From Nemertoderma westbladi (taxonomy: Eukaryota > Animalia > Xenacoelomorpha): a stretch of 64,000 nucleotides of DNA. The stretch covers positions 45,019 to 109,018 of the forward strand of contig JAUCBJ010007562.1 in assembly GCA_032718475.1 (NCBI GenBank), in the 5' to 3' direction. A program made the translations under genes and the position numbers. The notes under the pieces are model-generated. The model was not told the DNA's origin. It saw nothing but the letters and a program-made list of their open reading frames with translations, and made no database searches. Shown here in pieces: positions 33,635 to 56,487 of the stretch; positions within the stretch are counted from its first letter, which is position 1, and each line of letters begins with the position of its first letter.

Positions 33635-35570
33635 TAAATTGGAGAGATACGCCTATTCCTACTAATTGGAAGAGACGGTAACAATACCTGCAATATCCTA
33701 CTGTAAAGTTTGTAAATCAAATCATAAATCCGACCTTCTCACCAAAACAGTAAACCCCAAGTAAGCGAATATATTGCAGTATCGATCTCTTATAACCGGT
33801 GAGGCAGAAAACAGTCTACGAGCAGACAAACTTCGATAAAACAAAATCCCGCGCAGCGAATCCTAAATCAGGCTGACTCACTGACGGACTAAGGGGCTCG
33901 TATACTTTGCCGCGGTGTGATTTATATGGTTGGGCAAAGGGACGCTAGCTAGGTACAGAGGCAGATATTTGGAGATGTCTAACTAGCGAGCAAAGTGCAG
34001 TAAGGACGAAAGTTAATTTTATATATTTTGAGGTGTAAATAATTTTTAACGCGCGTGTGTTAATTCTGAACGGTCAAAGCAGTTTTGCTCCTTCACATAT
34101 ATAATTACTGGGTACGGTGTGCATTTTACGAATATTCTAATTTTGTAACTTGTAGGTCCAATACTCACGAATGATAAGGTTCCTTCCCCTCTTGCGTATT
34201 TCCAGGACTCAAATTCAGGCATAAGGTTAATACTACGCCCAGAATTCGGCAATTTTAGGTACCAGGTCCCTGATACTAAGAAGAGATGTGTTAGTTTACT
34301 ACTGTAGGCGTACGGGTACTAATAGCTATCCTGGCTCCTATCTAGAATTTTAGTCACCCAGGTAGTCCGGGTAACTTCCTATTAGGGCGTTGGCGGGGAC
34401 ACGGTAGATGTTAGTATATCCCTGATAGCCTTAATTTATTTGCGCCTAGTACGTAAACTGCCCTACCGCCTGAACGGTACAATCCCAATTCAGGTGAAAA
34501 CACAGCAACCCCCCTAGCCTACAAGTTCTGATGTAATGGACACTGTCGTACTGCAAATAGTCGCACACACACCTGTACTTAGCAAGAGTTAAGCGTACAG
34601 TTTGCTGCACCCTAACCAATGTGTATGCCTTGTACCGGTGTGCCTACGTCCTATCTGCGTACTAGTATCTGCTCTCTCTCCCTCCCCGTAGGAATATGAA
34701 GGTCTACTGCGGTTTTTCCTGAATCAAGACAGTACAGCCCCTATGATGTAATTTTGGGCTTACAGCGTGTCACTACGTCTACCTTTTGATCTTTTGGTCT
34801 TATACTTAGGTAGCAAGGATCGAACGCTGTCTAACCTTTCAGGCGATGGGCGAATAACACTAGATGGTATTGCGGGTCGTCTCTCGTCTACATTCCCGTG
34901 ATGTTCCCGTTCATTGCTGCGGCCCGATCTCTAGCCGGCCATCCTGTCCCTGAGTTTGTTCACCGTAGTGAATTCATAGTAAAACAGAAAAGCTGAGAGA
35001 ATATTCTGACTTTATTACAGAAGACACAATTATAATACAATGTAATCTGAGAATAAACTAAGCACGACAGAATAATAATGTGAATATAATCTGTGAAGTA
35101 GAGATATAAGATTGATTGATTGTGATTGAGATAACTAATGAACGAATCGCACCTTTATATACTAAATTTGTGCCGCAATCAATCGAGAAAATTCTCGATT
35201 GTTCTATGAGTTCTAACGGGGTTTTAAAGATAGCTATTGGTCCAGCTAATATATAACTTGCACGACATTGGTTACAATCAAATAACTACAGCCTTATTGG
35301 TACAGATAAATGCAATTAATTTGTAGCGGTTAATTTAAATGAGTAGAAATTCTGCACAAAAAATAATTCGCACTTACTAGGATTCGAACTCGATACCTAC
35401 TACACATATAATTTCCAACGCTCTACCAACTGAGCTACTGAACCACTTGACCGATAGATGTACAATAGATAGAACCAATACTAATGAGAACTCAAAGCAA
35501 TCTTTACAAAGTTAATTCGAATAAAATAAAATTTTGAAAATCCACGGCATTTAGGGAATATAATTCTATA
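33635..35570 (-). repeat. 3' LTR of B copy 1 (1936 bp)
   Basis: Direct repeat of 48665-49507 + 51875-52967; the identical 68-aa ORF at 34046 and 49076 confirms offset 15030. Confidence 0.96.
35367..35444 (-). ncRNA. tRNA-like Pol III unit (A box, B box, T-run) in the LTR
   Basis: GGTTCAGTAGCTCAGTTGGTAGAGCG...GAGTTCGAATCC...ATTATTTTTT. D-arm intact; acceptor and anticodon stems pair poorly. Confidence 0.6.
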
Positions 35571-36393
35571 CCGCTCCATGAAAACAGGATATTATCGTGC
35601 ATAAAATATACGGTTTTCACCAATAATCAATCAAACTATAGAATACTTAGGGCGTACTTACATATTTACAATTAAATTTCAAACAATACTTCCTTTTTAC
35701 GTAATGATTCGATACAAAATAATTACAAATTCAAACTTTACGTATTTAAGGCTTTACTAAGTAAGTACAATATAAATCTAAATTAAATTCACCAATATAA
35801 ATCTATTGCATCTCAATATTGCATAAATTCAAACAATTACAAATACAAATAAATGAAAACAATAAGAAAGGCTCGCAAGTCTTCCATCTACTATTGCATC
35901 CCAAATATTGCATAAATTCAAGTAATTACAAATACTTTCGTACCTAAATGTAGATTGCATAAGTTTGGAATAATTACAAATATGAGTCTTTCTGAGCACA
36001 AAATTTTCTGTCTATAAACTTTCTCTTTAGGTACAAATACTGCTTATAAAATATAAATTGCATAATATTCGGAACAATATAAATTGCATAAGTTCGGAAT
36101 AATCACAAATATAAAATATAAATATAAATTCTTACAAATATAAATCTTTCAAATATAAGTTCCTTCTAAATATAAACACTTAAATTTTCTAAATATAAAA
36201 CATATAATTCAAAATAAATCACTAATCATAAGAAAGGCCCACGAGTCTTCCGTCCACCCTTGCCCTCCCTTTTATCGCTTAGTAGATCGAGCCCTGCCGC
36301 GTCCTCGAAAACTGCGCACAGGTGACTTTGCTCGCGATATGGGACTTGTGGGGCGAGTCACTGGTTTACTTGGGACGTTGAGGGACGGTGCGA

Positions 36394-38463
36394 CTATTTC
36401 CTCGCAAATTCGTCTGTTTGGCATCCCAAAACCTCGACGACATTCACTGACGACTCTATTGCTAAATAATATTGTAAGACCGCTCTTGGAGGTGACGTAA
36501 TAGCCCAATACACGCATCCTCTCCATTTAAGCTGTGATTCAAACTCACTCATATCTGGAGTATCACCTTCTCCATAAGTTTCAATATACTTGTTTCTTTT
36601 ACCTTCTTTATAATCCCAATTGAATAACAGGTAGGAAATGTATCCAGTTCCAGTCTTCTGAGTATTATACTCACGAAAATATCCCTGTTCTATAGACCAC
36701 AGAATAAGAGGTCGAGTGTCGACGTATGGTGTCGGTAGTCGGTCATCGCTGTCCGTCATGCCGGCGAAGTCGCTAATTAAATCCTCCCTTACTCCTGATC
36801 CAACCTTTACAACAGTTTTATCTAAAATCATGTTTCTTACCATCTTCGGTAGCATTCTAGCGTCAATATTACAAGCTTGGTCCATCTTCTTTACTATATC
36901 GGTGATAAGATGGTGTCGCTTTGTATTCGCTGGAGGTATCGGCATTCGTTTGTCGCTCCTCTGTCTACTGAAAACGTGCAGGACTCCGTCCGCCGCTCTA
37001 ATCTGTATAGTCTTAGAAGTCAAACTCTGCTGATGACTGCCGCCCTCGTTATCGCAAAACATATAACCGTTTTCCTGAAACGATCTAAACGTCCTAGTCC
37101 ATTCATCCAACAATTCTTCCGAAGGTTGCCAAATCTTCTCTATATCCTTATCCTCATCGAAACGAATAACCTTACCTCGCCAATCTGCGGCAATATCTGT
37201 ATCCGACTCGAAGGTTCCGGTTCCAATCCATAAACGAATCGTCTTGGTTAGATATCCTTTCAGATTACTCGGAGCTATATCGGCACCAGCTCTATCCAGT
37301 TCCTTAAAATCTTGGATATGAGGTGGAACGTTGTTCACGACCTTTTGAGTAATATGTCTACGTAAATCATATATCTTACTCATATCGCTGAAAACAACTG
37401 CAGGAAGAAACTCCAAGTTCGAAATGATTTCTGGATGATCCACGATGGGTATTTCGTACGTCGTATCCTGTCGGACTGGTATACTAATAGGAAAGTTGAG
37501 TGTCGTACTCAATGGTTTCGTAGCTGAAGTACTATATGGTTGCATTTCTCTTGGCCTCTCCGGGGATGCAATCTGTAATCTCTGAATAACGTTATGAGCA
37601 AAGTTTATGCTCTCGAAAACTTCCGGTGTCATCTCCTTAGCTGAAGTTTGATCGTGTGACGTCCAATGGCAAGGTAGGCTCGCGAGTCTTCCACCCCATT
37701 CTTCCATCTCACCTTTCTCGAAAGCCTTGTAGGCTCTGTATAGGCTAAGAGCTTCTTTCTTTTCGCGGGTTGACTGATTCGCCTCGTCCAGCGTAAGTTC
37801 AAATACATCGGGTTCAACAACCTTAGGTGGGTAAATGACAGTTTCTCCCGCCTTTGGTCCGGTCATAGCAAATGAATGATATGGATTCGATAAAGGATAC
37901 CCTCCTTCCTGGTAGCGTAGTTGTTGATGATTCGAACACCTCGCCAATATCGGTTCGGGATTTTCCTTATTCAAACGCATCGGAATCGCATTTCGTTGTT
38001 CGCGCATACAAGAACCGCATTGATAATAAAGTTTATAAACTGAAAATGCTTCCTTGGTTTCTCTATCGTCCCCTCGAGTTCGTCTGTAAAGATGCATTCC
38101 ATCGAATTCATCGCGTACCGCGGGCATAGGTTCGTGCGCCTTTAGGTATTGCATGGTATGATACAAACGACTAATTTCAGTATCGGGGTCTTCGCTAATG
38201 TCTCCCGTATCACACAAAGCATCGTACGGGTAAAGTTCGTTGAAGGTTTGGCGCAAACTTTCGATTCTTTCGTTCAATGCGTTTTGCCTTCTCTTTAATA
38301 CGTTCGAGTCATATTTAGTTCTCGCGAGTTTCGCTGTACTTTCCGATAATTCTTTTATACCAAATATAGTGTAATCCTTGGCTCCAAATCTTTCGAATGG
38401 CGCTGCTGCCTCCTCTTGGATATCATATCCCCATCTCGGCTCTCCTTGTATCCCTTTCTCCAT
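36394..38463 (-). CDS. Extra (env-position) ORF: CxxC...CxxH motif + putative DEDDy 3'-5' exonuclease (RNase D/WRN/MUT-7-like)
   Basis: 689 aa, same strand as pol, between pol and the 3' LTR. YMFCDNEG (ExoI DxE), IQI, LPKMVRNMILDKTVVKVGSGVREDL (ExoII), YVDTRPL, W...LQYYLAIE (possible ExoIII). Confidence 0.75.
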   Translation of the reverse strand: MEKGIQGEPRWGYDIQEEAAAPFERFGAKDYTIFGIKELSESTAKLARTKYDSNVLKRRQNALNERIESLRQTFNELYPYDALCDTGDISEDPDTEISRLYHTMQYLKAHEPMPAVRDEFDGMHLYRRTRGDDRETKEAFSVYKLYYQCGSCMREQRNAIPMRLNKENPEPILARCSNHQQLRYQEGGYPLSNPYHSFAMTGPKAGETVIYPPKVVEPDVFELTLDEANQSTREKKEALSLYRAYKAFEKGEMEEWGGRLASLPCHWTSHDQTSAKEMTPEVFESINFAHNVIQRLQIASPERPREMQPYSTSATKPLSTTLNFPISIPVRQDTTYEIPIVDHPEIISNLEFLPAVVFSDMSKIYDLRRHITQKVVNNVPPHIQDFKELDRAGADIAPSNLKGYLTKTIRLWIGTGTFESDTDIAADWRGKVIRFDEDKDIEKIWQPSEELLDEWTRTFRSFQENGYMFCDNEGGSHQQSLTSKTIQIRAADGVLHVFSRQRSDKRMPIPPANTKRHHLITDIVKKMDQACNIDARMLPKMVRNMILDKTVVKVGSGVREDLISDFAGMTDSDDRLPTPYVDTRPLILWSIEQGYFREYNTQKTGTGYISYLLFNWDYKEGKRNKYIETYGEGDTPDMSEFESQLKWRGCVYWAITSPPRAVLQYYLAIESSVNVVEVLGCQTDEFARK

Positions 38464-39122
38464 AATTAGGGTGTAGTTACATAATCATTACTACTAGAGG
38501 GAATACAACAGAGTTTGTAGTTAGTTGTGAGGAGACGTGAGAGTTTCGTCTGCCCTTTGGGCTCGACAACGCTCTAACCTCCTACCCATAGCCTAAGATC
38601 TAGGGTTTCTTTAATGACACGCTGCTTCTTATCTAAAATTTTTTGCCGAAGTAAAAACGAATTTGGGCTAAACTGGCCGTGAGTCTAAAATACTCACTTT
38701 TTGATCCCAAACTATTATCAGAAAATAAGCAGTCAAGAATTAGTAATAAATATAGGGGAGTCTATTTTGACGTAACTTATTGAAACAAGACCGTGTAAAA
38801 TTTAATTAAAATTTTAAGAAAGGCTCGCAAGTCTTCCTCTCTTGTTTCTCTAATTTTAAGTTCCACCCGACTGTACCCTGAAATCTATTCACTGGAGAAA
38901 ATTTTAAAAATTTTTTCAAATCCAAATGGATTGTCTAAAATTTCGAAAATGTCTCAATATTGTGAGTTCCAAGTAGAATTCCATTTCTTATACCTACAAA
39001 TCCCGCTCCTATGTGACACATAAGGGTACTACCCTCAATGTTCACATATAAAGACAATGGAATTCTACCTCTGTCCTTACTACGGTGTACAGGTACGTGG
39101 AAATCTATTTGTAAACTCCTAA

Positions 39123-42100
39123 TTATTTACTAGTATTAGGTGGAGATTTGTAGTCTCCAGACTCGTTACGAGTCTCTTCAAGAAGTACGAGACATTGAGT
39201 CGGTCTGTCTACTGTACGACCGTCAATTGTTCGTACCGTCACAGTTCTTGTCACTCCATCCATAGATGGATGTGTGGCTAAAATGACACCTGTTATACAG
39301 AAGCGTCTTTTTAGATTCACTTCTGCCAACAGCACGTGATCTCCCGGCTTTAATGCGCGGGTGTTATTATACCAGTTTGTTCTGGCAGAAATAGAGGGCA
39401 AATAATGGTTTTGCCATATTTCCCAGAATTTGTTAGCCAGTAGTTGCGTGATTTTCCACGCTTTTCTACCGTAACTATCGCTTTCCATTGGAATGGAAAT
39501 CGGCGTCAATGTGGTCGGTGCCTGCATAAGCAGGTGTGCTGGTGTTAAAGCGAACTGAGATTGTTTGTCATCGGGTACTAATACTATTGGTCTAGTATTT
39601 AGTATTGCCTCGATTTCAACAAACAATGTTGTCAGTTGGTCGTCTGTTAATATGTGGTTTACTGGAATGACTTTTGCCATGGCTGTCTTTATAGATCTAA
39701 TCAATCTCTCCCAGACTCCGCCTCTCCAAGGACTATCTGGAGGATTAAACTTCCAAACAATCTTGTGAGGTTGCAGTTCGTTCGAGATTTGATCATGATC
39801 TAATTTCTTAAAGGCTCTAGCAATCTCATTCCGAGCACCAACAAAGTTTGTCCCTTGGTCTGAGTACAAGCATTTTACTAGTCCGCGTCTAGCGATAAAT
39901 CGCCGCAGTGCTAGTATAAACGCGTTGGTGGAAAGATCCATCACACGTTCAATGTGAACTGCCCTACTGGACATACATGTGAAAATCAGTCCCCAGCGTT
40001 TTACTAGTATACGTCCACGTTTCGTATGTATGGGACCAAAGCAATCAATTCCAGTCTCTGTAAAAGGTGGTCTGAATGCTTGAAGTCGTGCTTGTGGTAG
40101 TTCACTCATTTCTTGGGTACCTATTCTAGAATGTACCTTTTTACAAATAATACACGTACGTGTCACTGAACTTAACGCTTTACTGGGTCTAATTAATACA
40201 AATCTAGTACGTAAGTAGGAAAGACAGTGGTGTCTTCCAGCGTGTTTCAGATGTAAATGTGCGTCCAGTATCATTGCACGTTGTAGTTCGTGATGTTGCG
40301 GTATTATTATTGGGTACCTAAAGTTTGTGTTAAAGTCAATGTTTTGAAGCCGAGATTTATGACAAATTAAGCCATTATAAATAATCGGACTCCAACTCAG
40401 TATCGGTGACGACTTGATTGGTTGACCTTGATGTATAGATGTGAATTCGCGCGCGAAATATCGCAGTTGGTAATGGCGAATTAATTTAATCTCACACCTG
40501 TCAATCTCAGCCAATGTAAGTCGACGTGTAAAGTCACGTTTGCCTTTAACGTATTGTACGAAACGTACAATCCACGCTAATTTTCGGCAAGCGTTTGTCC
40601 AAGAGTCTGTTAAGTTTACAATACGGTCGACGTAAGTATTTGTGACGTCATCAGGTAAGTCAATGGAGATTTTGGAAGGTTTTGAATTACTAGAAGGGCC
40701 CACGGGTCCGCCGGTAAGTATTCCCTTGTTGACTGTTGATCCGTCCGGGTCTACAAGTAATTTGTCCTTCTTCGTCTTCTTACCTTGATCGTCAGTACTT
40801 TGTAAGTCGATCGTTAATGGTGGTTTGAACTCTATGGGGTCAGCAGGTTTCGGTAAACTTATTTTCCTGCCGACATTAATCCCAGGTCTCACTATAGGTT
40901 GCAAGTTCGGTATGTCTCTTGAGCGCAAAGTAACACCTGTATTTACATTAGCGTAGGTACTACCCACATCTGTAATACATGAGGTTTCACCGTGCTTATG
41001 GTTGCTCAAGTGTGTCAAAATTGGTAGTTTGTCAATACAAGGCCGCTCCAATAGGGAAACTGCGGCTTTATCGTTAGTCAATACATTACTAGTGTCTAGT
41101 CGACTGTCTAGTAACGTGTCTGGTTGACCGTCTGGTAACGTATCTGGTTGTTTGTCAATAGAAGGCCGCTCCAATAGGGAAACTGCGGCTTTGCTGTTTG
41201 TCAGTGTGTTACTAGCGTCTGGTAGAATGTCTGGTTGACCGTCTAGTAACGTGTCTGGTTGACCGTCTGGCGATATGTCTGGTTGACCGTCTGGCGATAT
41301 GTCTGGTGTAGAAAGGCTCGCAAGTCTTCCTCTCTTGACCTTTGAAGTTATATCCTTCCATTTCGCCTTCGGTTTTTTCTTGAGTTTTGTCGCCGTCGTC
41401 TTTTTCTTTGTCTTCCCCTTTTTTGGTTTCTTGATTTCGGCGTCCTTAGGAATGGTGTTGGATTTGTTGTCGTATAACGGAGGCCAATCTTGTGTCGATT
41501 TCTGCAAGAACTGGGGTCCGTGTTGCCAAAACTCTTTGTTCTCCGGTTTACAGAATTCCTCAGGCATCATTCCTCGCGACGCAATATCAGCTGGGTTTTG
41601 TGGTCCGGGACAATGTCGCCAATCCTCCTTTATTGAACGGTCTAGAATTTCCGCGCGACGGTTAGCTACGAATGTCTTGAATTCGAGTGTGTCGTTGTTT
41701 ATGTAAAATAAAACCAACGTCGCGTCAGTCCAATAAAATATCTGTAAACTCGACTGTAGTTCTGTCTGTATGAGGTTCACGATGGTGGTTGACAGGGTTG
41801 CGGCTTGTAGCTCGGCTCGTGGTGTCGTCATATACTTAGTAGGCATGGTCTTAGCCTTGGAAGTAATGAGCGAAACATCGAACTCGTCTGATTCTACTTG
41901 TCTGCGCAAATACGCTGCCACACCAAAACCGTTGTCACTGGCGTCAGAAAAACAGTGTAGTTCTAAGTTGTCAGGAAATGTACTCTGTAATGGAAAGTAA
42001 ACCCTGGGTATGAAATAATCCTCTAGCGAAAATAATTCCGCCTCCCAGGTCTTCCATAAGTCCACTTGGTCTGATGAGATCGGCTCGTCCCACGTTAGTC

Positions 42101-45100
42101 CATCCTTCCATATACTGCGCATATAAATGCGGGCTTGCAGTATCACTGGACTGATGAATCCTAACGGGTCGAACAATCGGCTCAACTTTGACAAGCATGA
42201 TCTCTTGGTCAGTGTGTTTCCTTGACTGTCCAGTCTCACCTTCACTCGAAAGTTGTCTGTGTTTGGGTCCCAAAAGAGCCCCAACACCTTAGTCGTCGGT
42301 AGTGGTTCGAACTCTAGGTCTATGTCACCACCTCCACGCTCAGTAGTTCCGAATGAGTCAACTAATTCGGCACTGTTTGAGGCGAATTTGGTGAGGTTAA
42401 AACCTCCGCCCGCCAAGCAGTCCCGTAATTGATGTGCTACTGTTGTAGCACGTTCTACTGTGTCGCAACTTTGTAAACCGTCATCAACGTAAAAGTCACG
42501 TTCTACAATTCTAATTATCTCTGGGTCATACAGATGTTTCTGATCTCTAGCGGCTTGCTTCAAGGCGTACATCGTACAATTTGGGCTGTCTCTGGCACCG
42601 AAAACGCGAACTTGCATTTGGTAAGTCGCTGGTGGTAGACTTAAGTCCCCTTCCGGATACCAGAGAAACCGCAAACTGTCTCTGTCTCGCTCTAACGCTT
42701 TTACTTGGTGAAACATCGCTTCAACGTCGCAAGTAAAGGCTACTTGACGCTGACGGAAGCGCATAATCACCCCCATAAGATAATTATTCATGTTCGGTCC
42801 ATCCATCAACTCACTATTGAGGGACATTCCCTCAAACAGAGCCGCACAGTCATTGACTACACGTACTTTATCTGGTTTGTCGGGATGTCTCACATAGTGA
42901 TGTGGCAGGTAGTATGTCTGGTCGGTCACTCGCTCCGGGTTAGTCATTCGGATAGCGTATCCTTCAGTCAAATACGTCTCCATCTGAGTGTTGTACTGCA
43001 GATGGGCTTTCTCGTCCTTTAATAGACGTTGTCGTATTGAGTGTAGACGTCTCAAAGCCAGTGGGTAGTTATTTATAAGTTTAGGACTTTGGCTACGCCA
43101 TAACATACCCACCTCGTAATGTCCGTCCTCCGTCTGTCGGATAGTATCTTCCATGATCTTTAGGGATTGTTTCTCCTGTTCCGACATACAAGGTTCGTAG
43201 CTACCAGGTTCAGCTGTATCTTGTTCTAACCACCTGATAGTCTTCTCCGTTAATTCTTTGTCCAAGGCGGCTTGTTCCAACTGATGAATTTTCAACGCGT
43301 CATCGTCGATATCGACGGGCACTGTTGAGGTTATTGGGGTAGGTAGACTCGCAAGCCTATCATCTGTCGTCGATGGAATCTCTAGCTGATTCGTCTTCTC
43401 CCCAAGTTCTAAACTCACCTGGTTGGTTAGCTGCTCCTTGTGACTTATCATACTAGTTACACGTCTGTCATGTTTTGTCGACTGTAGCGTAGTATGGTTC
43501 ACGTCGTGTGAAAAGGAATGAATTGAATTTGTAGTCAATAAACTACATGTACTCTGTACATCGTCTTCCTCGTCACTTACGTCTAGTGTGCGCACAGGCG
43601 CTCGAGTATACCACCCTATCGGCGTTCTGCAGGCGTATGCGTTTCCTGCTACAACTGCCGATGGTCTGGTTTCCCACACCTGATGTAGGTTGAATTGGTC
43701 CGTCCCGATCAGCATTGCTACCGATCTATAATTGACAGGACATTCGGGTACACCAAGGTGTCTGAAATACTTACGGTCCTCCAGAGATTGTTCCGGCACT
43801 GGACCTAGTAGGTTACTAAAGTCCTTCGTGGCCGCAAAGGTTAGATCTCTAAAGGGCAACAAAGACCTCTCCCTCTCGCTGTGTTGCGATTTTGGAAGAA
43901 GAGAGTCTAAGTCCAACTTAACTCGTGTCACTGGTATTGTACGCTGTCCGTGCATACTACTTACTGTATAACTGACGTGTTTACCTTGTCTGAGATCCGT
44001 TACGACGTCAGCTATCTTTTCATCCACGTAACTGTGAGATGAGGCTGAGTCTAGAATCGCGTAAATCCTCTTACTCCCCTTTGTGCCAGTGATCTTAATC
44101 GGGATTACACTGAATCCCTTCAGTTGGTCAGTGGTCAGGAGCGCGATCGACGGTTGTTCGTCTCCATTGGAATATACATCGTCGTCTTCTGATTCTTCGT
44201 CCGACGATCCGGATTGTTCTGAGAAGCAATCCTCAATATGGGTCATGAAAGTTGGAGTCGTTTTCGATTCTCGTTTTCGGTAAGCCGCATCACATCTCGC
44301 TGCTGCTTCCGGGTGTTCCCTGGCGAAGCGTTTCGTCGGCGTGTGGCTGTCTGTGTGGAGCAGACCGTCGTGGTTGCGTCCACAGGATGGACAAGTGTCG
44401 GTATTTGGGCAATCCTTACGGACGTGTCCGTGTCGCGTACACCGCCAACAAGAGTCCAGTGGCCGTATCTGCAGCCGTCGTTCTTCCGAGTTCAACTCGC
44501 GAAATTGTCGACAACCTCGTAACTTGTGACTAATATACCGCTTACCTAGATGTTCGCAGTATTGGCAGCCGTTGAAGTCGGTGCTGAGTTGCTGTCTCGT
44601 CTGTTTCGTCCCAATGGGCGCAGATACTCTATTACCGTCTGAGAATTGTCGTGATTCCGTCGGTGTGGCGTAAGTGGCCGTCTTTGTGGATGTTGTCTGG
44701 GGTTTTTGTCGGTTGGAGGATGGCAGTGTGATCCCTTCTGCCACGATGTGCTGGTCGGTATAGTTAGATCGAGTTTCTACTACCGCCTCCCTGGATATTA
44801 AAAGGTACACATCTTCTAATTTTAGGAATCCTCCTCGCTCCTCTCGCTGGTATTCGACCTTCCTCCACTCCCGACGAAGTCGATGGTGGAGTCGTCCTAT
44901 TATCTTTAATAGAACTGTAGGGGTATTCCCGTAATCAAGTTGTCCAATTGATCTTAAGGTAGTGATAGCGTTCTTGATCTCGTCAGCTAGTTTTAGTAAG
45001 TCGACGGGTTTAGTGATAGCCCCTCCCTTACAGAGTTCCTCTATTACTGACCTGGCCATACTCACTGTACCTCCGTATATCGAAGTTAAACGATCGTACG

Positions 45101-47855
45101 CTAGTTCGAAAGCGTCCGGTACACCGACGAAAGTCTCCGCCAAACGTTTAGGTTCTCCTGACAACGTTTGGAGCAGGTAATTGAACTTCTCCCGTGATGT
45201 AAAGGCGCACACGGCGATCTGGGATTCGATATAGTCTACGAAGGTATGCCAGTGTTTTGAGCTACCGGAAAACTTCGGTGGTTGTTGTACCGGCAATCCC
45301 TGTCTGGCTGCGAATTTTGCTATCTCCTCAGCAACGTTCAGAGTTTTGCGTCCTTGGTTGGTAACCTGGTTGATGTTCTCCCTTCTAGGCGCTTTTCCCT
45401 GATACGATGTGGGGTTTGAAGGTACCGGTCTTTGTGGTGCCTTCGGGTGTCTATTGTGTTCGAATTCGGTGTTCCTCGAACTATCGGTTTGAACTTCCTC
45501 CAGACGCTCCTCGATCTGAGCCAACTTGTTGACAACTGGTCGCAGAATGTCGGCGAACTGTTGTGTACTAATTGCGTCCGTTGGTTGTAACGCCTTCTGT
45601 ATTGGTGTATTCTGTGGAGGATTGTCTGCAAAGGAGTTGTCTGAACGCTCGCGTTTATATTCATCGGCCGCCCCTGTTCTAAATACCTCGCGTTTCGGGT
45701 AATCCGATTCGCTCGAAGTACTACTATCATCTGGATATGGTGGTCGACGTGCTCGCGTCCGTTGCGTCGTTCGAATTCTAACGGCTCGTCTCGGAACATC
45801 GTCCACTGATCTCCGTTGTTCGGTAGGCTCACAAGTCTTCCTCGAAGTCGTAGATTGCGATGTAAACTGATTGAATGGTCGCGTTTCCACTGTTCTCCGT
45901 TGTTCGGTAGGCTCACAAGTCTTCCTCGAAGTCGTAGATTGTGACGTAAACTGATTGAACGGTGGTCGGACGACCGCGTTTGAATCCAAAGGCCTTGTAG
46001 GCCGAAATGTCATGGGGTAATCGTAGTGCGTAACGGGTTTAGGTGTCAAAGGTGGACTCACCTGTTTTGTCGTCAGTAGTGCAGGTCCGACTAATAAACT
46101 ACTACGATCTGTAATCGGTGGGTTACTTACCTTGACTCTCGGAATAGGCGACGACGCTGCTCTTGGCGGTATAAACTTGTCCGGAATAACAAACCTGTGT
46201 TCCGTCACACCATGGATAGGAGAAATATCACTACTACCCGCAATCGAAACAGGTTCCTTAGTCGTAACCGGTGCAAACATATGAGTTACCTGTGGGAATC
46301 GTTGACACACGTCTTTTACTAATTGTCGTTCCCGTCTGGGTGCTCCTACGCTTCCTTCCTTCTTCCGTTCCTGAATTTGGCGATGTCTTACCTCTAACTG
46401 GTCCAAATCATGTCCGTCACGAGATCTCATCGATCGATCGCGGGCTAGAAGATCCAGATTTTCCTTGGTTTCGGCTAATTCTCTCGCCCTTTTCTCAAGT
46501 TCGAAACGAAGTTTAACTTCCTTTTCTCGTTGTTCCGTTTGTTGTTGTTGCGCCTCGAACTCTGCTTGTCGTATCGCTTGTTGGGCTTTTATTTGCCGTG
46601 TCTTCATCTCGACTCTGGCTTCCGAAACTAATCTTTGTCGCTCTAACTCTGCCGCAGCCGTTTGTCGCTCTAACTCTGCCGCAGCCGTTTGTCGCTCTAA
46701 CTCGGCCGCTGCCGCTGCCGCTGCCGTTTGTCGCTCTAACTCGGCTGTTGCCGTTCGTCGCTCTAACTCGGCCGCTGCCGCTGCCGCTGCCGTTTGTTGC
46801 TCTAACTCGGCTGTTGCCGTTCGTTGCGCTAACTCGGCCGCTGCCGCTTGTTGGGCAATGTCCAACTCTAACCTTTCCATTTCGGCCGCTTCGAGTTCGG
46901 CTTGTTCCTGCAGATGAGAGATTCTCGCTACATTCGCAACACGTATTTTCTCTTCCTCTACTGCTGTTTGTATCATTAGAAGTTGAGCTTGTTCTTCCAT
47001 CTCGTGTTGCTGTCTGTAGAACTGTTGCTGTTGTCGAGCAACTTCTGACGTAACTATACTTCCCTCGCAGATTTCGCTACGAATACTTACCAATGATTGA
47101 TTTAGTATTCCCGGTGCTGATTCGATTTGTGCGAATGAAGTTTCCCTCGTGTATTCCGGCACGGTTTCCAAATCGCCGACGTCTTCGCCGCACATGCGTA
47201 AGTGGTCCGTCAGGTGTTTTAATTGTCCATCCAGTCGGTACAGTTCCTGTTCTTCCTCGGGCTGTAATAATTCGTCCGAAACTGACTCACCTAACAACTG
47301 GTCCGCTTGTTCCTGTTGTATCTGTCTAATCGTCGACTTAAACTGAATCAGTTTCTCTCTAGTGATCATTAGTTTCTCGAGGATTCTAAGTTGAGTATCC
47401 ATGTCCTGTCTCTGTCTGGCTAGATCTTGTAGGCCAACTAGATTATCTACGGACTTATATACTTTACTCTGTACTCTAACCTGGAGGGTGTAGAACTCGA
47501 ATCGAGACATCGGAGCGGTCAACCCGTCTAATATGCGTTGGCCTTCTCCAATGCTCCTGGTTATATGCGCCATGTATCCACCGACGCTTCTAACCACACT
47601 TTCTGTGCTTCCTGCTGAACTTACCATTTCCGTTTCCCTATATCTAGGTTGCGGAACAGTTAGAAAGTCCTCGGTCCTGCCGTCGCCTCGTACTACGGCA
47701 TCCGGTACTCCCGTTGGATGTACTGGTGACGCACACGGTGTAGGTTCGGTAGGCTCGCGAGTCTTCCCCTGTTGTTCTTCCGCTGCTGACTTATCTCCGT
47801 CACACGAGTCATAGTCGGTTTGTGTATTCTTCGTATAGTCTTGTTTGTCACTCAT
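39123..47855 (-). CDS. BEL/Pao Gag-Pol polyprotein (2910 aa)
   Basis: PPKFSG...KFNYL gag core; three Cys/His knuckles; protease ILDSAS; RT YLPHH, RVVNDC, DVEAMFHQV, FYVDD; RNase H HCFSDAS, PRAELQAA, FVANR, NPADIASRG; integrase H..H..CIIC, GIDCFGP, SDQGTNF, GGVWERLI. Confidence 0.98.
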   Translation of the reverse strand: MSDKQDYTKNTQTDYDSCDGDKSAAEEQQGKTREPTEPTPCASPVHPTGVPDAVVRGDGRTEDFLTVPQPRYRETEMVSSAGSTESVVRSVGGYMAHITRSIGEGQRILDGLTAPMSRFEFYTLQVRVQSKVYKSVDNLVGLQDLARQRQDMDTQLRILEKLMITREKLIQFKSTIRQIQQEQADQLLGESVSDELLQPEEEQELYRLDGQLKHLTDHLRMCGEDVGDLETVPEYTRETSFAQIESAPGILNQSLVSIRSEICEGSIVTSEVARQQQQFYRQQHEMEEQAQLLMIQTAVEEEKIRVANVARISHLQEQAELEAAEMERLELDIAQQAAAAELAQRTATAELEQQTAAAAAAAELERRTATAELERQTAAAAAAAELERQTAAAELERQTAAAELERQRLVSEARVEMKTRQIKAQQAIRQAEFEAQQQQTEQREKEVKLRFELEKRARELAETKENLDLLARDRSMRSRDGHDLDQLEVRHRQIQERKKEGSVGAPRRERQLVKDVCQRFPQVTHMFAPVTTKEPVSIAGSSDISPIHGVTEHRFVIPDKFIPPRAASSPIPRVKVSNPPITDRSSLLVGPALLTTKQVSPPLTPKPVTHYDYPMTFRPTRPLDSNAVVRPPFNQFTSQSTTSRKTCEPTEQRRTVETRPFNQFTSQSTTSRKTCEPTEQRRSVDDVPRRAVRIRTTQRTRARRPPYPDDSSTSSESDYPKREVFRTGAADEYKRERSDNSFADNPPQNTPIQKALQPTDAISTQQFADILRPVVNKLAQIEERLEEVQTDSSRNTEFEHNRHPKAPQRPVPSNPTSYQGKAPRRENINQVTNQGRKTLNVAEEIAKFAARQGLPVQQPPKFSGSSKHWHTFVDYIESQIAVCAFTSREKFNYLLQTLSGEPKRLAETFVGVPDAFELAYDRLTSIYGGTVSMARSVIEELCKGGAITKPVDLLKLADEIKNAITTLRSIGQLDYGNTPTVLLKIIGRLHHRLRREWRKVEYQREERGGFLKLEDVYLLISREAVVETRSNYTDQHIVAEGITLPSSNRQKPQTTSTKTATYATPTESRQFSDGNRVSAPIGTKQTRQQLSTDFNGCQYCEHLGKRYISHKLRGCRQFRELNSEERRLQIRPLDSCWRCTRHGHVRKDCPNTDTCPSCGRNHDGLLHTDSHTPTKRFAREHPEAAARCDAAYRKRESKTTPTFMTHIEDCFSEQSGSSDEESEDDDVYSNGDEQPSIALLTTDQLKGFSVIPIKITGTKGSKRIYAILDSASSHSYVDEKIADVVTDLRQGKHVSYTVSSMHGQRTIPVTRVKLDLDSLLPKSQHSERERSLLPFRDLTFAATKDFSNLLGPVPEQSLEDRKYFRHLGVPECPVNYRSVAMLIGTDQFNLHQVWETRPSAVVAGNAYACRTPIGWYTRAPVRTLDVSDEEDDVQSTCSLLTTNSIHSFSHDVNHTTLQSTKHDRRVTSMISHKEQLTNQVSLELGEKTNQLEIPSTTDDRLASLPTPITSTVPVDIDDDALKIHQLEQAALDKELTEKTIRWLEQDTAEPGSYEPCMSEQEKQSLKIMEDTIRQTEDGHYEVGMLWRSQSPKLINNYPLALRRLHSIRQRLLKDEKAHLQYNTQMETYLTEGYAIRMTNPERVTDQTYYLPHHYVRHPDKPDKVRVVNDCAALFEGMSLNSELMDGPNMNNYLMGVIMRFRQRQVAFTCDVEAMFHQVKALERDRDSLRFLWYPEGDLSLPPATYQMQVRVFGARDSPNCTMYALKQAARDQKHLYDPEIIRIVERDFYVDDGLQSCDTVERATTVAHQLRDCLAGGGFNLTKFASNSAELVDSFGTTERGGGDIDLEFEPLPTTKVLGLFWDPNTDNFRVKVRLDSQGNTLTKRSCLSKLSRLFDPLGFISPVILQARIYMRSIWKDGLTWDEPISSDQVDLWKTWEAELFSLEDYFIPRVYFPLQSTFPDNLELHCFSDASDNGFGVAAYLRRQVESDEFDVSLITSKAKTMPTKYMTTPRAELQAATLSTTIVNLIQTELQSSLQIFYWTDATLVLFYINNDTLEFKTFVANRRAEILDRSIKEDWRHCPGPQNPADIASRGMMPEEFCKPENKEFWQHGPQFLQKSTQDWPPLYDNKSNTIPKDAEIKKPKKGKTKKKTTATKLKKKPKAKWKDITSKVKRGRLASLSTPDISPDGQPDISPDGQPDTLLDGQPDILPDASNTLTNSKAAVSLLERPSIDKQPDTLPDGQPDTLLDSRLDTSNVLTNDKAAVSLLERPCIDKLPILTHLSNHKHGETSCITDVGSTYANVNTGVTLRSRDIPNLQPIVRPGINVGRKISLPKPADPIEFKPPLTIDLQSTDDQGKKTKKDKLLVDPDGSTVNKGILTGGPVGPSSNSKPSKISIDLPDDVTNTYVDRIVNLTDSWTNACRKLAWIVRFVQYVKGKRDFTRRLTLAEIDRCEIKLIRHYQLRYFAREFTSIHQGQPIKSSPILSWSPIIYNGLICHKSRLQNIDFNTNFRYPIIIPQHHELQRAMILDAHLHLKHAGRHHCLSYLRTRFVLIRPSKALSSVTRTCIICKKVHSRIGTQEMSELPQARLQAFRPPFTETGIDCFGPIHTKRGRILVKRWGLIFTCMSSRAVHIERVMDLSTNAFILALRRFIARRGLVKCLYSDQGTNFVGARNEIARAFKKLDHDQISNELQPHKIVWKFNPPDSPWRGGVWERLIRSIKTAMAKVIPVNHILTDDQLTTLFVEIEAILNTRPIVLVPDDKQSQFALTPAHLLMQAPTTLTPISIPMESDSYGRKAWKITQLLANKFWEIWQNHYLPSISARTNWYNNTRALKPGDHVLLAEVNLKRRFCITGVILATHPSMDGVTRTVTVRTIDGRTVDRPTQCLVLLEETRNESGDYKSPPNTSK

Positions 47856-49507
47856 TTCGGTAGTTGTAAGTCAAGTGAAGTGAGTGTCAAAGTATCGAGT
47901 TTACCGTATTTGTATAAAACGGTACTAATTACAGTCATATAAAATTAGCCTACCGGCCGATTTTATAGCAGATGGATAAAATTAGCCTAAACGGCCAATT
48001 TTACAGCAAATAAATGTCACGGAATAAGTATATAATAAAATTAGCCTAGCGGCCAATTTTATAACAAATAAATCGGATAATGATATGCGTTATCAAAAGG
48101 TAAATTAAATACAATAATACGGACTAATTCAGCAATGAACAAAGAAATCATACGGAATGCATAAATACTTGAGACAGTGGAACCCACAATAATTTTAACT
48201 AATACGGTAATGCCTAACTTATTTATGCAACTTTTCGAACTCACCCACTCCAATAATTCTCCAGAAAAACAGATTCCCAGATACAAACCGAACGTGAACC
48301 TTTCCGTTTTTAACGTTGCGGACGAAACGCGATTTTCCCAACCAAAGTTGTTGAGTTATCTATCTCCCAAACTTGCTAAACACGGTCTTGCTCCCGTTAC
48401 AGTCTAGAAATGAGTTCTGAATCCTGAAAAAACAAAAGAGTTAGGTTTTACTTTACGAAAATTTTGTACCGGTACAATATGGTATTTAAACCCTTTTAAA
48501 AACCGGTATTCAATTCCAAAAATATTTTACACGCGGTTCAAATCAAATTTTTTATTTCAAAATATTAGCACTTAGCTAATCAAATACAAATTTTACCTCA
48601 AAATACAAAATTTTCAAATAACTTTAGTCCTACCGAACCGTAGTTCAGTAAAACATATTCCTACTAAATTGGAGAGATACGCCTATTCCTACTAATTGGA
48701 AGAGACGGTAACAATACCTGCAATATCCTACTGTAAAGTTTGTAAATCAAATCATAAATCCGACCTTCTCACCAAAACAGTAAACCCCAAGTAAGCGAAT
48801 ATATTGCAGTATCGATCTCTTATAACCGGTGAGGCAGAAAACAGTCTACGAGCAGACAAACTTCGATAAAACAAAATCCCGCGCAGCGAATCCTAAATCA
48901 GGCTGACTCACTGACGGACTAAGGGGCTCGTATACTTTGCCGCGGTGTGATTTATATGGTTGGGCAAAGGGACGCTAGCTAGGTACAGAGGCAGATATTT
49001 GGAGATGTCTAACTAGCGAGCAAAGTGCAGTAAGGACGAAAGTTAATTTTATATATTTTGAGGTGTAAATAATTTTTAACGCGCGTGTGTTAATTCTGAA
49101 CGGTCAAAGCAGTTTTGCTCCTTCACATATATAATTACTGGGTACGGTGTGCATTTTACGAATATTCTAATTTTGTAACTTGTAGGTCCAATACTCACGA
49201 ATGATAAGGTTCCTTCCCCTCTTGCGTATTTCCAGGACTCAAATTCAGGCATAAGGTTAATACTACGCCCAGAATTCGGCAATTTTAGGTACCAGGTCCC
49301 TGATACTAAGAAGAGATGTGTTAGTTTACTACTGTAGGCGTACGGGTACTAATAGCTATCCTGGCTCCTATCTAGAATTTTAGTCACCCAGGTAGTCCGG
49401 GTAACTTCCTATTAGGGCGTTGGCGGGGACACGGTAGATGTTAGTATATCCCTGATAGCCTTAATTTATTTGCGCCTAGTACGTAAACTGCCCTACCGCC
49501 TGAACGG

Positions 49508-51869
49508 TAGGGTGTTACAAAAATCACTTTTTTGCCCCAATTGCTTGGAAACTTCGACATGTTTTGCCATTTTAATGTAGAAGTACAATGCAAAAAACCG
49601 TTTTGAAAAATATTTAGTGGAAGAGGTGTCACACGAGTCACAAAATCTGAGAAATTTAAGAAAATATAGCAGTTTTAATTTACCGATAAATCTAGCGAGA
49701 GATGATTGCAATGATCTGAAACTCATGTTATGTAATGCATTTATCATGGGCTTTCCAATAACGTTTTTGGCATTGTGAAATTGACAAGATCAGATGTGTC
49801 ACATTGAGTTTGAAAAATTGATTTTTTTTTTAAAATATAAGAAATTTAACAAAATATAGCAGTTTTAATTTACCGATAAATCTAGCGATAGATGATTGCA
49901 ATGATCTGAAACTCATGTTATGTAATGCATTTATCATGGGCTTTCCAATAACGTTTTTGGCAATGTGAAATTGACAAGATCAGATGTGTCACATTGAGTT
50001 TGAAAACTTAACTAATTCTATATGGGAATGTGCTGGTCCCCCCTGAGTTAGTTCAACTATTACTGACCTGGCCATCTTTACATTGCCGCGATACACAGTA
50101 ACTAACCTGTCATAAGCCCCCTCAGAGGCATTGTCATCACCTATAAACGTACTTACCAATTCCTTCAGTTGACCTCTCAACTGTTGGTATAAGTAGTTGA
50201 ATTTCTCAGTCGGTGAGAAATCCTGTTGAGCGACATTAGTCTTGATATAGTTGATGAAGGTTCTCCAATGTTTAGATAAACCAGTGAAGTGCGGAGGATG
50301 TAATGGTGGAAGATTGTGTCTCGGACTGAACTTAGAAAACTCCACTGTGATTGAGTTGACCATAGTATTGTCTTCCCTTCCTACCCGTTGATGGACATAA
50401 GTTGGAATCGGTTCAACTGGTGAGTAGGATAACGTACCTGTGGACGAGTACGCGAATTCGTCCCGTGATAGGTTACCTTCTCACTGACTGGTGATCTATA
50501 GTCAGTCTCAAACTCTGAGTCTGCCTGAATATTTATAACTGGGCATTCGTGGTTTAAACTTGGGATGGTCTTCAGGACGTTGGTACTGTTGTTCCTGTAC
50601 TCTAAGCTTTTCATTCTCATGTTGAGCTCGTTCTACATTGTCATTGACCTCATGGATATTACACCTAACATGGTCGAACTCCTTATCCACCTGCACTTTG
50701 ACGTACTGAATTCTTTGCTGCACTTCTTGCACAACACCACATACAGTTTGAACTTGTCCCTGCACCTGATGGACTTGTGACTGAATATGTTGGACTTTAC
50801 CTTTTTCTATGGATGACTTCATCCCACACCTCCTTATTACCTTCCCTAATTGCTAAATTTAATTGATACATATGGATGTTGGGCTTACCTGGAGTAGGAC
50901 TTGGATTAAACCGCTCACTGTCTCGAGCTCCATCCCACTCGGCTTGATCGCCTTCGTTAATCACAAATCTTTATCGAGACTCTACTTGAGGTCGTATGGG
51001 ATTCAAGACAAAGAGTGTTACCTGAGGTGTGGTTGGTTCTAATTGGTGTCTAGGTTCGGGCTCATGGCAACCTCCGGGGTGACTTATTACCTGGTTTCCA
51101 GGAGTCCCTGCATCCACTGGGTCCACCCAATCCTTGGCAACCAGTCTATAGATTTATTGCGCATAATGTTGATGTGCTTCTATGGTGTCGGCTCCATGTA
51201 TCTCGTTGAAGCGCACAATCGATGGTTCAGGCTGCTGATTAGTTCTTGAGCTCGAGTTCTTGAGCAGTCCGTTGCTGTCGATCCTCCAATTCATAGGCCT
51301 TCTGTTGCGGTTTGGCCGCAGCCAACTGTCTTTGTTGTTCTAGAATTAATGCCTCCTTGTGTTGTTCCATCTCGAGTTTCGAGGAACACACTCAGTTTTC
51401 ATACATTTTGATCTTCAATTTTTAAATTGTAGAAATGATAAATGCATTACATAACATGAGTTTCAGATCATTGTAATCATCTATCGCTAGATTTATCGGT
51501 AAATTAAAACTGCTATATTTTGTTAAATTTCTTAGATTTTTAAAAAAAATTCAATTTTTCAAAATCAATGTGACACATCTGATCTTGTCAATTTCACAAT
51601 GCCAAAAACGTTATTGGAAAGCCCATGATAAATGCATTACATAACATGAGTTTCAGATCATTGCAATCATCTATCGCTAGATTTATCGGTAAATTAAAAC
51701 TGCTATATTTTGTTAAATTTCTCAGATTTTGTGACTCGTGTGACACCTCTTCCACAAAATATTTTTCAAAACGGTTTTTTGCATTGTACTTCTACATTAA
51801 AATGGCAAAACATGTCGAAGTTTCCAAGCAATTGGGGCAAAAAAGTGATTTTTGTAACACCCTACAGTG
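49508..51869. mobile_element. Long-TIR non-autonomous DNA transposon carrying a BEL gag fragment
   Basis: >300-bp inverted arms (TAGGGTGTTACAAAAATCAC... / ...GTGATTTTTGTAACACCCTACAGTG); mirror ORFs 49493-49747 (-) and 51625-51870 (+); AACGG on both flanks. Confidence 0.88.
50000..51380 (-). pseudogene. Degenerate gag fragment of a related BEL family
   Basis: LPPLHPPHFTGLSKHWRTFINYI...EKFNYLYQQLRG...AYDRL...MARSVIVELTQGG aligns by eye with family-B gag LPVQQPPKFSGSSKHWHTFVDYI...EKFNYLLQTLSG...AYDRL...MARSVIEELCKGG. Confidence 0.85.
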
Positions 51870-52763: not shown

Positions 52764-52841
52764 TTCGCACCTACTAGGATTCGAACTCGATACCTACTAC
52801 ACATATAATTTCCAACGCTCTACCAACTGAGCTACTGAACC
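52764..52841 (-). ncRNA. tRNA-like Pol III unit in the 5' LTR of B copy 1
   Basis: Same as 35367-35444 with one substitution (52771 C vs 35374 T). Confidence 0.6.
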
Positions 52842-52967
52842 ACTTGACCGATAGATGTACAATAGATAGAACCAATACTAATGAGAACTCAAAGCAATCT
52901 TTACAAAGTTAATTCGAATAAAATAAAATTTTGAAAATCCACGGCATTTAGGGAATATAATTCTATA

Positions 52968-56214: not shown

Positions 56215-56343
56215 TGTTATAGAATTATATTCCCTAAATGCCGTGGATTTTCAAAATTTTATTTTATTCGGATTAACTTTGTAAAGATTGCTTTGAGTTC
56301 TCATTCGTATTGGTTCCATCATTTGTGCATCTATCGGTCAAGT

Positions 56344-56430
56344 GGTTCAGTAGCTCAGTTGGTAGAGCGTTGGAAATTATATGTGTAGTAGGTATCTAGT
56401 TCGAATCCTAGTAAGTGCGAATTATTTTTT
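56344..56430 (+). ncRNA. tRNA-like Pol III unit in the LTR of B copy 2
   Basis: TAGCTCAGTTGGTAG A box, GTTCGAATCC B box, T6 at 56425-56430. Confidence 0.6.
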
Positions 56431-56487
56431 GTGCAGAATTTCAACTCATTTAAATTAACCGCTACAAATTAATTGCATTTATCTGTA

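What the first reader, a model, noticed from the sequence alone, without database searches (positions are those of the whole stretch)
36272..38463. BEL/Pao retrotransposon with a Zn-finger + DEDDy 3'-5' exonuclease-like gene in the env position
Seen: an open 689-aa sense ORF between integrase and the 3' LTR of a young element, with no obvious signal peptide or TM anchor, so not env-like. The C-terminal third has FCDNEG (~37040-37068), IQI, LPxxVxxxILDKTVVKVGSGVREDL (~36780-36850), VDT and W...QYYLAIE, in the order of ExoI/II/III in RNase D/WRN/MUT-7/EXD nucleases; ExoIII is the weakest match. The N-terminal part has a coiled coil and CGSC...CSNH. An overlapping frame (36272-36526) ends in an RG/RS-rich tail. 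Known: RNase D-like DEDDy ORFs are reported as cargo of some Ty3/gypsy elements (e.g. bdelloid rotifers), and MUT-7/EXD1 act in small-RNA silencing; I am not aware of this in BEL/Pao. Inference: an anti-silencing nuclease, or a primer/cDNA end-trimming enzyme that might relate to the odd termini and PBS. This is the best candidate for a novel system here.
Basis: partly seen in the sequence, partly recalled or inferred. Interest (0 to 1): 0.85.

Follow-up and report, generated by a model that had tools for sequence, protein, structure and literature searches.

The report
Self-priming retrotransposon with exonuclease-like cargo
A recently inserted BEL/Pao jumping gene in what is likely an animal genome carries an extra, well-conserved gene predicted to be an RNA-trimming nuclease that likely helps it evade host silencing, and it likely starts copying itself with an 11-base piece of its own RNA instead of a host tRNA.

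Summary
The 689-aa ORF is real. It lies between integrase and the 3' LTR of a young BEL/Pao element and has no membrane segment. It is under purifying selection: 29 synonymous, 11 missense and 0 stop changes among 40 listed variants. A DEDDy exonuclease fold is likely (about 0.8) but not proven. A language-model search returns PF01612 clusters and all five invariant ExoI/ExoII columns are matched (2 of 300 shuffles do so), but no profile scores it, the third motif is ambiguous and only a guided fold model supports it. Other copies hold extra sequence near 36439, so the last ~14 residues and the 'overlapping' RG/RS frame probably reflect a deletion in this copy. The odd PBS is explained: its 11 bases pair with an 11-mer inside the LTR, and the second copy changes both sides together, a Tf1-like self-priming signature. 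Four other BEL/Pao loci show this signature without the extra gene, so primer trimming is not its required job; anti-silencing is my best guess (about 0.4). DEDDy cargo is published for rotifer retroelements. I found neither feature published for BEL/Pao, but this scan had already noted BEL/Pao self-priming on other DNA.

The parts
33635..35570 (-). 3' LTR, 1936 bp, ends TATA...TTTA instead of TG...CA
34688..34698 (-). 11-nt candidate self-primer inside the 3' LTR (LTR position 873-883); the same 11-mer is at 52085-52095 in the 5' LTR
35380..35437 (-). tRNA-like A-box/B-box segment in the U3 part of the LTR (box consensus recalled); not called by ARAGORN or Rfam
35133..35161 (-). TATA-like and initiator-like motifs (one of two candidate transcription starts; consensus recalled)
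35571..35580 (-). short purine-rich tract before the 3' LTR (candidate PPT)
36272..36526 (-). 84-aa RG/RS-tailed frame; its 3' part is likely the displaced C-terminal tail of ORF2
36394..38463 (-). ORF2, 689 aa, accessory gene in the env position, under purifying selection
36440..37110 (-). predicted DEDDy 3'-5' exonuclease domain (aa ~452-675): ExoI D471/E473, ExoII D561, ExoIII uncertain
36438..36440 (-). point where contigs of other copies hold extra sequence that this copy lacks
   Evidence: tables 7 and 8
37927..38019 (-). C-x2-C...C-x2-H spacing, possible zinc finger (untested)
38494..38525 (-). branch-point, pyrimidine tract and AG 30 nt upstream of the ORF2 ATG: candidate splice acceptor for a subgenomic mRNA
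39123..47870 (-). single gag-pol frame, 2915 aa: DUF1759, zinc knuckle, protease motif, RT YVDD, Peptidase_A17/RNase H region, integrase, DUF5641
48244..48445 (-). leader with candidate branch point and acceptor (48424) and candidate donor (48244); both kept in copy 2
48632..48649 (-). core of a hairpin with a UACG loop directly after the PBS, kept in copy 2
48654..48664 (-). PBS: 11 nt flush with the 5' LTR end, complementary to the LTR 11-mer, not tRNA-type
48665..52967 (-). 5' LTR, split by a ~2.35-kb inverted-repeat insertion (49510-51859)
56218..64000 (+). second copy of the family (LTR 56218-58147, PBS 58148-58158, gag-pol to the window edge); carries the compensatory primer/PBS change

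Best explanation
A young BEL/Pao retrotransposon carries a separate, conserved gene in the env position whose last third is predicted to be a DEDDy 3'-5' exonuclease that likely acts against the host's small-RNA silencing, while the element likely primes its own reverse transcription with an 11-base piece of its LTR. Shown: element anatomy, open ORF2, purifying selection on it, the 11-bp LTR/PBS complement with a two-sided change. Inferred: DEDDy fold (about 0.8); self-priming (about 0.9); release of the primer by the element's own RNase H as in Tf1 (by analogy); expression of ORF2 from a spliced subgenomic RNA (about 0.7); and that the protein, made apart from Gag-Pol with a coiled-coil-like segment, a possible zinc finger and a basic tail, binds RNA and trims or destroys silencing guides or their precursors (about 0.45 given the fold).
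For: Selection: 29 synonymous, 11 missense, 0 stop among the 40 variants listed (of 209), against 29% synonymous expected, p = 2e-8, pN/pS about 0.16; no small indel at 2% share inside the ORF; a 16%-divergent relative aligns over 553 nt of the domain without a gap. Fold: 25 of 30 language-model neighbours of aa 420-689 are PF01612-type clusters, score 0.93; 5 of 5 invariant columns matched, against 2 of 300 shuffles and 0 of 150 real slices; the guided model is confident over the aligned core and ranks EXD2, diDNase and Rrp6 first, Z 9.0-9.9 over 102-118 residues, rmsd 3.2-10.2 (partly circular). Self-priming: exact 11-nt complement, 4 of 5000 Markov simulations, A-T to G-C change on both sides in copy 2; a second stem joins the bases after the primer to the LTR end. 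Accessory and not core: splice-acceptor-like site before the ATG; 4 BEL/Pao loci with the self-primer signature have no such ORF.
Against: No profile or database hit for ORF2. My own DEDDy HMMs match only the ExoII stretch, rank 4 of 302 and 3 of 1002 against shuffles. A motif-chain score was reached by 12 of 500 shuffles and beaten by at least 5 of 210 unrelated real slices, and it chose other residues for ExoI and ExoIII. The summed profile score was reached by 5 of 300 shuffles and 1 of 150 real slices. The atlas notes that 4-10% of shuffled proteins reach 0.9. The single-sequence model failed (pLDDT 31); the unguided C-terminal third of the guided model is under pLDDT 50 and Foldseek gave no match at E <= 0.001. 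Nothing here tests an anti-silencing role. The primer/PBS helix forms in the predicted fold only if the RNA starts near LTR position 800-875, not at 430, 600 or 700.
Confidence: 0.4

Rival explanations
1. ORF2 is a replication helper: after a rough cut, it trims the single-stranded 3' tail of the element's own RNA back to the 11-bp primer:PBS duplex, or trims cDNA ends, which would suit the TA...TA termini.
For: The primer appears to lie inside the transcript if the TATA-like start at LTR ~435 is used; RNase D-type enzymes trim 3' ends of structured RNA (PMC5408684 passages), and that paper proposes 3'-end processing for the rotifer ORFs. Unusual ends, a zero-base spacer and the extra gene co-occur here.
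Against: 4 of 10 BEL/Pao loci with a readable junction show the self-primer signature and none has an extra ORF. ORF2 is not fused to Pol, so packaging is not assured. Tf1 uses its RNase H for the cut (reference titles in PMC4600332).
Confidence: 0.22
2. ORF2 has the DEDDy fold but works as an RNA-binding adaptor (like Egalitarian, EXD1 or Maelstrom) that packages or carries element RNA to germ cells, replacing env.
For: Env position, coiled-coil-like heptads at aa ~46-80, basic tail, weak ExoIII; EXD1 and Egalitarian are among the structural neighbours of the guided model; PMC5408684 notes inactive DEDD derivatives in the piRNA pathway.
Against: The three testable catalytic acids are present and D561 varies only synonymously among listed variants.
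Confidence: 0.17
3. ORF2 is a conserved accessory protein of another fold, and the nuclease motifs are a chance likeness.
For: No significant sequence or unguided structure match; motif scores are reached by 0.2-2.4% of shuffles.
Against: Two independent methods (language-model features, invariant-column placement) point to the same family and the same region.
Confidence: 0.17

Closest known systems
DEDDy-type ORF3 of Juno and Vesta LTR retrotransposons and Athena/Terminon elements of bdelloid rotifers (PMC5408684; passages, Discussion and the one supplement read)
   Same: Extra ORF after pol, RNase D-like motifs, no membrane segment, altered acid pattern (DEED there), Cys/His motif in some.
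   Different: Host elements there are not BEL/Pao; those ORFs lack coiled coils and showed no clear departure from neutrality, whereas ORF2 is under purifying selection and has a ~450-aa N-terminal part. Sequence kinship could not be tested.
Belpaoviridae / BEL-Pao elements (ICTV profile PMC8742986, whole text read)
   Same: Gag-PR-RT-RH-IN order, Pao-specific Pfam domains, LTRs, a third gene after pol.
   Different: The profile gives an 18-nt tRNA-Arg/Gly PBS, LTRs of 0.2-1.2 kb, 4.2-10 kb genomes and an env-like third gene; here the PBS is self-complementary, the LTR is 1.94 kb, the element ~17 kb and the third gene nuclease-like.
Tf1/Tj1 self-priming (Tf1/sushi group of Ty3/gypsy; PMC4600332 passages)
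   Same: PBS complementary to the element's own LTR sequence, no tRNA site; 11-nt length and a second stem match what I recall for Tf1.
   Different: Different family; primer-to-PBS distance over 1 kb; the primer may not be at the transcript's 5' end; relatives have the primer split by an intron.
WRN-exo / EXD2 / Nibbler (MUT-7) / RNase D exonucleases
   Same: Order and spacing of ExoI, the Gln strand, ExoII and the following Asp.
   Different: A ~33-aa helical insertion before ExoII, uncertain ExoIII, 12-23% identity in forced alignments, below any profile threshold.
Env-like third genes of BEL/Pao (phlebovirus Gc-like in Atlas and Cer13, gB-like in Tas, F-like in roo; PMC9094657 and PMC13524379 passages)
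   Same: Position after integrase.
   Different: ORF2 has no membrane segment and no family hit to a glycoprotein.

Membership tests
Belpaoviridae (BEL/Pao) | Gag-Pol with PR-RT-RH-IN order and Pao-type domains | tested here: met
   Peptidase_A17 E 4e-41, DUF5641, DUF1759, integrase zinc domain; motif order; best integrase relatives are Pao-type at 34-42%
Belpaoviridae (BEL/Pao) | Flanking LTRs with a target-site duplication | tested here: met
   1936-bp LTRs, 5-bp duplication
Belpaoviridae (BEL/Pao) | 18-nt tRNA-Arg/Gly primer-binding site as in the ICTV profile | tested here: not met
   PBS does not begin with TGG and pairs with the LTR instead. Membership rests on Pol, so this marks a variant
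Belpaoviridae (BEL/Pao) | Typical sizes (LTR 0.2-1.2 kb, genome 4.2-10 kb) | tested here: not met
   LTR 1.94 kb; element ~17 kb without the nested insertion
Belpaoviridae (BEL/Pao) | Placement in a named clade (Pao, BEL, Tas, Suzu, Sinbad and others) | tested here: inconclusive
   Long branch (1.36), no starred set holds it, quick tree only, no named references
DEDDy 3'-5' exonucleases (PF01612) | ExoI D-x-E and ExoII D in order on the conserved columns | tested here: met
   5 of 5 invariant columns; 2 of 300 shuffles, 0 of 150 real slices
DEDDy 3'-5' exonucleases (PF01612) | ExoIII Y-x3-D | tested here: inconclusive
   Two candidates, Y630-x3-D634 and Y666-x3-E670; region unresolved in the model
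DEDDy 3'-5' exonucleases (PF01612) | Score above the family's curated cut-off | tested here: not met
   No PF01612 hit at E up to 10
DEDDy 3'-5' exonucleases (PF01612) | DnaQ-like fold | tested here: inconclusive
   Single-sequence model failed; model guided by family rows matches EXD2 at Z 9.9, rmsd 10.2, 118 residues, but that is partly circular
DEDDy 3'-5' exonucleases (PF01612) | Metal-dependent 3'-5' exonuclease activity | not testable with these tools
   Needs an assay
Rotifer retroelement DEDDy ORF3 group | Sequence kinship with Juno/Vesta/Athena ORFs | not testable with these tools
Tf1-type self-priming | PBS complementary to own LTR, flush with the LTR end, kept through sequence change | tested here: met
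   11 of 11, two-sided change in copy 2, 4 of 5000 by chance
Tf1-type self-priming | Primer at the 5' end of the RNA and released by RNase H | not testable with these tools
   No RNA reads; two candidate starts
Tf1/sushi group | Ty3/gypsy-type Pol | tested here: not met
   Pol is Pao-type: it works like Tf1 but is not a member
Env-like fusion genes | Membrane anchor | tested here: not met
   Highest 19-residue hydropathy 1.17

The most novel reading that the evidence does not exclude
A deep-branching BEL/Pao lineage has dropped tRNA priming and TG...CA ends and carries its own 3'-5' exonuclease to finish an internal self-primer: the RNA is cut roughly downstream of the 11-mer and the element's nuclease trims back to the primer:PBS duplex. 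This would be a priming route that needs a dedicated element-encoded trimming enzyme, unlike both tRNA priming and Tf1.
Probability: 0.2. Interest if true: 0.88.

Novelty: new variant of a known kind. Interest (0 to 1): 0.6.

Why it matters
The role of DEDDy cargo genes in retroelements has been open since they were described in rotifers, where no selection was seen. Here a BEL/Pao family keeps such a gene under clear purifying selection, which makes it a good test case for an element-encoded suppressor of small-RNA silencing or a primer-processing enzyme. Separately, the ICTV profile says BEL/Pao elements are primed by host tRNA; a compensated 11-bp self-primer here and in 4 of 10 readable relatives suggests that a sizeable part of the family does not follow that rule.

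Tried and rejected
Homolog searches for ORF2 found nothing: 5.8-billion-protein set, near and shorter lengths (longer lengths not searched), 1.84-billion representatives, metagenome and viral contigs, plasmids and phages, PDB sequences, Pfam and NCBIfam. The N-terminal 300 aa gave no usable atlas hit. No whole genome is held. No RNA holder was listed among sequencing runs, so start site, splicing and expression are untested; run X5 may be DNA and is thin. Contig depth was not used as copy number. Rfam and ARAGORN found no ribozyme or tRNA in 33600-39200, so self-cleavage by a known ribozyme as the source of the primer end has no support. The single-sequence fold failed; Foldseek on the guided model gave no match at E <= 0.001 in PDB or viral libraries. 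Alignments A3 and A4 were not used for folding because their C-terminal rows were misplaced or forced. A motif-chain score was weak. The integrase tree did not place the element or show that self-priming forms one clade (3 changes, 155 of 500 shuffles as low). Long ORFs after integrase in L031, L055, L062, L069 and L071 are tandem gag-pol copies, not cargo; none of 62 downstream ORFs matched ORF2 or my DEDDy HMMs. Env reading rejected. Separate-gene reading of the RG/RS frame rejected as unlikely.
Full report
Anatomy. The finding lies in a BEL/Pao element on the minus strand, 52967-33635. Its LTRs are 1936 bp; the 5' one is split by a ~2.35-kb inverted-repeat insertion. The LTR halves are 845/845 identical and differ by 1 mismatch and one 3-column gap over 1094 columns. 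A 5-bp target duplication flanks the element, which sits inside a LINE fragment. One 2915-aa frame holds Gag and Pol with Pao-type domains. Its integrase is only 34-42% identical to the best 120 database relatives and forms a long, unplaced branch in a quick tree of 79 rows. The named relatives are all from animals, which is my only basis for calling the host a likely animal. A second copy starts at 56218 on the plus strand and runs off the window before ORF2.

The ORF is real and conserved. ORF2 runs 38463-36394 (689 aa), with the motifs at the stated places and no hydrophobic segment. Contigs from 4 public DNA runs (at most 3 samples and 3 studies; one may be the source) were laid on it. Of 209 variant positions the tool listed the 40 best supported: 29 synonymous, 11 missense, 0 stop, against 29% synonymous expected (p = 2e-8, pN/pS about 0.16). 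For comparison, 1476 nt of pol differ between the two window copies by 20 synonymous and 10 missense codons. No small indel at 2% share falls inside the ORF. Diverged relatives align over 553 nt with 88 differences and no gap, and over 981 nt with 184 differences and 4 gaps. Read by eye, the loose ends of such relatives at 36995 and 36488 keep the amino acids of the strand after ExoI and of the LQYYLA stretch with mostly third-position changes. A branch point, pyrimidine tract and AG end 30 nt before the ATG, so expression from a spliced RNA is likely; there were no RNA reads to test it.

A correction. In all 4 runs, contigs break off at 36440 and others resume at 36438, with unmatched sequence both ways. 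One contig matches 108 nt and then runs on for 174 nt, and it carries most of the depth there in run X2. So other copies hold extra sequence at this point. The last ~14 residues here are probably copy-specific. The RG/RS-rich frame is plausibly the tail of ORF2 in those copies: by eye, differences between runs in the adjoining loose end fall mostly on third positions of that frame. The length of the missing part and the join were not determined.

Is it a DEDDy nuclease? Direct searches fail. For: the protein-language-model atlas gives aa 420-689 a score of 0.93, with 25 of 30 neighbours in a set of clusters where 34-50% of members carry PF01612, and 168-170 shared features, which fits a distant relative or a chance hit. 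I built a set of 117 bacterial RNase D, NrnC and WRN-like domains. MAFFT places D471, E473, Q487, K553 and D561 on its five invariant columns; 2 of 300 shuffles and 0 of 150 real unrelated slices do so. Against: HMMs from these sets find only the ExoII stretch (rank 4 of 302 and 3 of 1002). A motif-chain score was matched by 12 of 500 shuffles and beaten by at least 5 of 210 real slices. The summed profile score was matched by 5 of 300 shuffles and 1 of 150 slices. AlphaFold on the single sequence failed. Guided by family rows over the first two-thirds, it gave pLDDT up to 80-89 in the core blocks and under 50 in the unguided third. That model ranks EXD2, a diDNase and Rrp6 first (Z 9.9, 9.2, 9.0; rmsd 10.2, 4.1, 3.2; 118, 109, 102 residues), which is partly circular, and Foldseek found nothing at E <= 0.001. 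I put the fold at about 0.8. The zinc finger is only a spacing pattern; a heptad pattern is present at aa ~46-80 (7 of 10 a/d positions hydrophobic, no control).

The odd PBS. The LTR ends TATA...TTTA and is followed at once by a sequence that does not begin with TGG. Its first 11 bases are the exact complement of LTR positions 873-883, which happened in 4 of 5000 Markov simulations. In copy 2 both sides have changed together, A-T to G-C. Whether this reflects selection or copying of the primer into the PBS, it points to self-priming. The bases after the primer can also pair with the LTR end, and a UACG-loop hairpin follows the PBS. In whole-region folds the helix forms when the RNA starts at LTR 800-875 (10-11 of 11 pairs) and not when it starts at 430, 600 or 700, so the start site matters and is unknown.

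Does the nuclease serve the primer? I fetched 79 BEL/Pao loci from metagenomes (the best 80 of 519 hits). None has an ORF2 homolog, though many contigs end soon after integrase. In 24 a terminal repeat was found; 23 have no ORF of 120 aa or more between integrase and that repeat, and the other is a tandem gag copy. I judged 10 of the 24 by eye to have a readable 5' LTR junction. Four have a tRNA-type PBS. Two (L036, L041) have a contiguous 11-nt self-complement and two (L042, L067) have a 12- or 15-nt one split by a GT-AG intron, each at 0 of 300 shuffles. Two are unresolved. The intron test came from earlier notes of this scan, which already report BEL/Pao self-priming in other genomes. So self-priming does not need ORF2 in general, though this lineage could still use it.

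Mechanism. Full-length RNA folds so that the LTR 11-mer pairs with the PBS; a cut at its 3' side, by analogy with Tf1 made by RNase H, would give the primer (inferred). ORF2 would be made from a spliced RNA as a free protein (inferred). An accessory that is separately expressed, conserved, dispensable in relatives and related to small-RNA trimming enzymes fits best as a counter to host silencing (about 0.4 overall). Primer or cDNA trimming (0.22), a non-catalytic RNA adaptor (0.17) and a different fold (0.17) remain.

Literature. PMC5408684 (passages, Discussion, supplement) describes DEDDy ORF3s in rotifer Juno, Vesta and Athena elements, says such nucleases had not been reported in retrotransposons before, and found no clear departure from neutrality. 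The ICTV profile PMC8742986 (whole text) gives tRNA priming and an env-like third gene only. Term searches within PMC3118150, PMC2774666, PMC554778 and PMC9094657 found 'exonuclease' 0 times, and within PMC13524379 'nuclease' 0 times. PMC4600332 and PMC5443660 (passages) describe self-priming for Tf1 and Tj1 and do not mention it for BEL/Pao. PMC6338049 and PMC6431247 (passages) mention the DnaQ-like/DEDDy cargo only for LTR elements in general, citing the rotifer work, and for Terminons. Ten library searches (listings seen) showed no paper on a BEL/Pao exonuclease or BEL/Pao self-priming. The library lacks most subscription papers. I recall, unverified, that Malik, Henikoff and Eickbush 2000 may mention an exonuclease-like domain in nematode Cer elements; that paper was not held. 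If so, the cargo is less new for BEL/Pao.

Verdict. Observation partly confirmed, interpretation partly supported. A new variant of a known kind: likely DEDDy cargo under selection in a BEL/Pao element that also shows a strong self-priming signature. Interest 0.6.

Noticed in passing
window 49510-51859: Inverted-repeat element (434-bp arms, 98%) inserted in the 5' LTR; it carries a 163-aa frame with a BEL gag fragment (DUF1759, E 1.3e-5).
   Followed up: partly
window 35380-35437 and 52777-52834: tRNA-like A-box and B-box in the U3 part of the LTR, kept in copy 2 with one change next to the B box core; not a tRNA by ARAGORN and no Rfam hit.
   Followed up: partly
window 38836, 36250, 35884 (minus strand): A 21-nt motif occurs on both sides of ORF2 (two exact copies, one variant), like direct repeats around a captured gene; one contig in run X4 skips 36310-38576, i.e. 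lacks ORF2.
   Followed up: partly
window 48424 and 48244: A candidate splice acceptor 240 nt after the PBS implies that the PBS lies in an intron removed from mRNA; the PBS itself starts with GT, as in L036, L041 and L042.
   Followed up: no
window ~40600-41450: A ~270-aa lysine-rich and repetitive stretch between RNase H and integrase, about 20 aa in the closest relative.
   Followed up: no
L042:2079-2830 and L067:6340-6759: Self-primer split by a GT-AG intron of 149 and 76 nt inside the LTR, giving 12- and 15-nt complements to the PBS.
   Followed up: partly
window 1-8400: 33-bp tandem array (about 220 copies) with long open frames and no Pfam hit in the longest.
   Followed up: no
window 31327-33634 and 52968-54938; 16413-18589: LINE with endonuclease and RT domains interrupted by the BEL element; a related LINE piece lies at 16413-18589.
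   Followed up: no
L031, L055, L062, L069, L071: BEL/Pao gag-pol frames in head-to-tail tandem with under 1 kb between integrase and the next frame.
   Followed up: no
window 33600-39200, run X5: A run labelled as a different organism holds near-identical pieces of the LTR and ORF2 at low depth; mislabel, mixture or close kin cannot be told.
   Followed up: no
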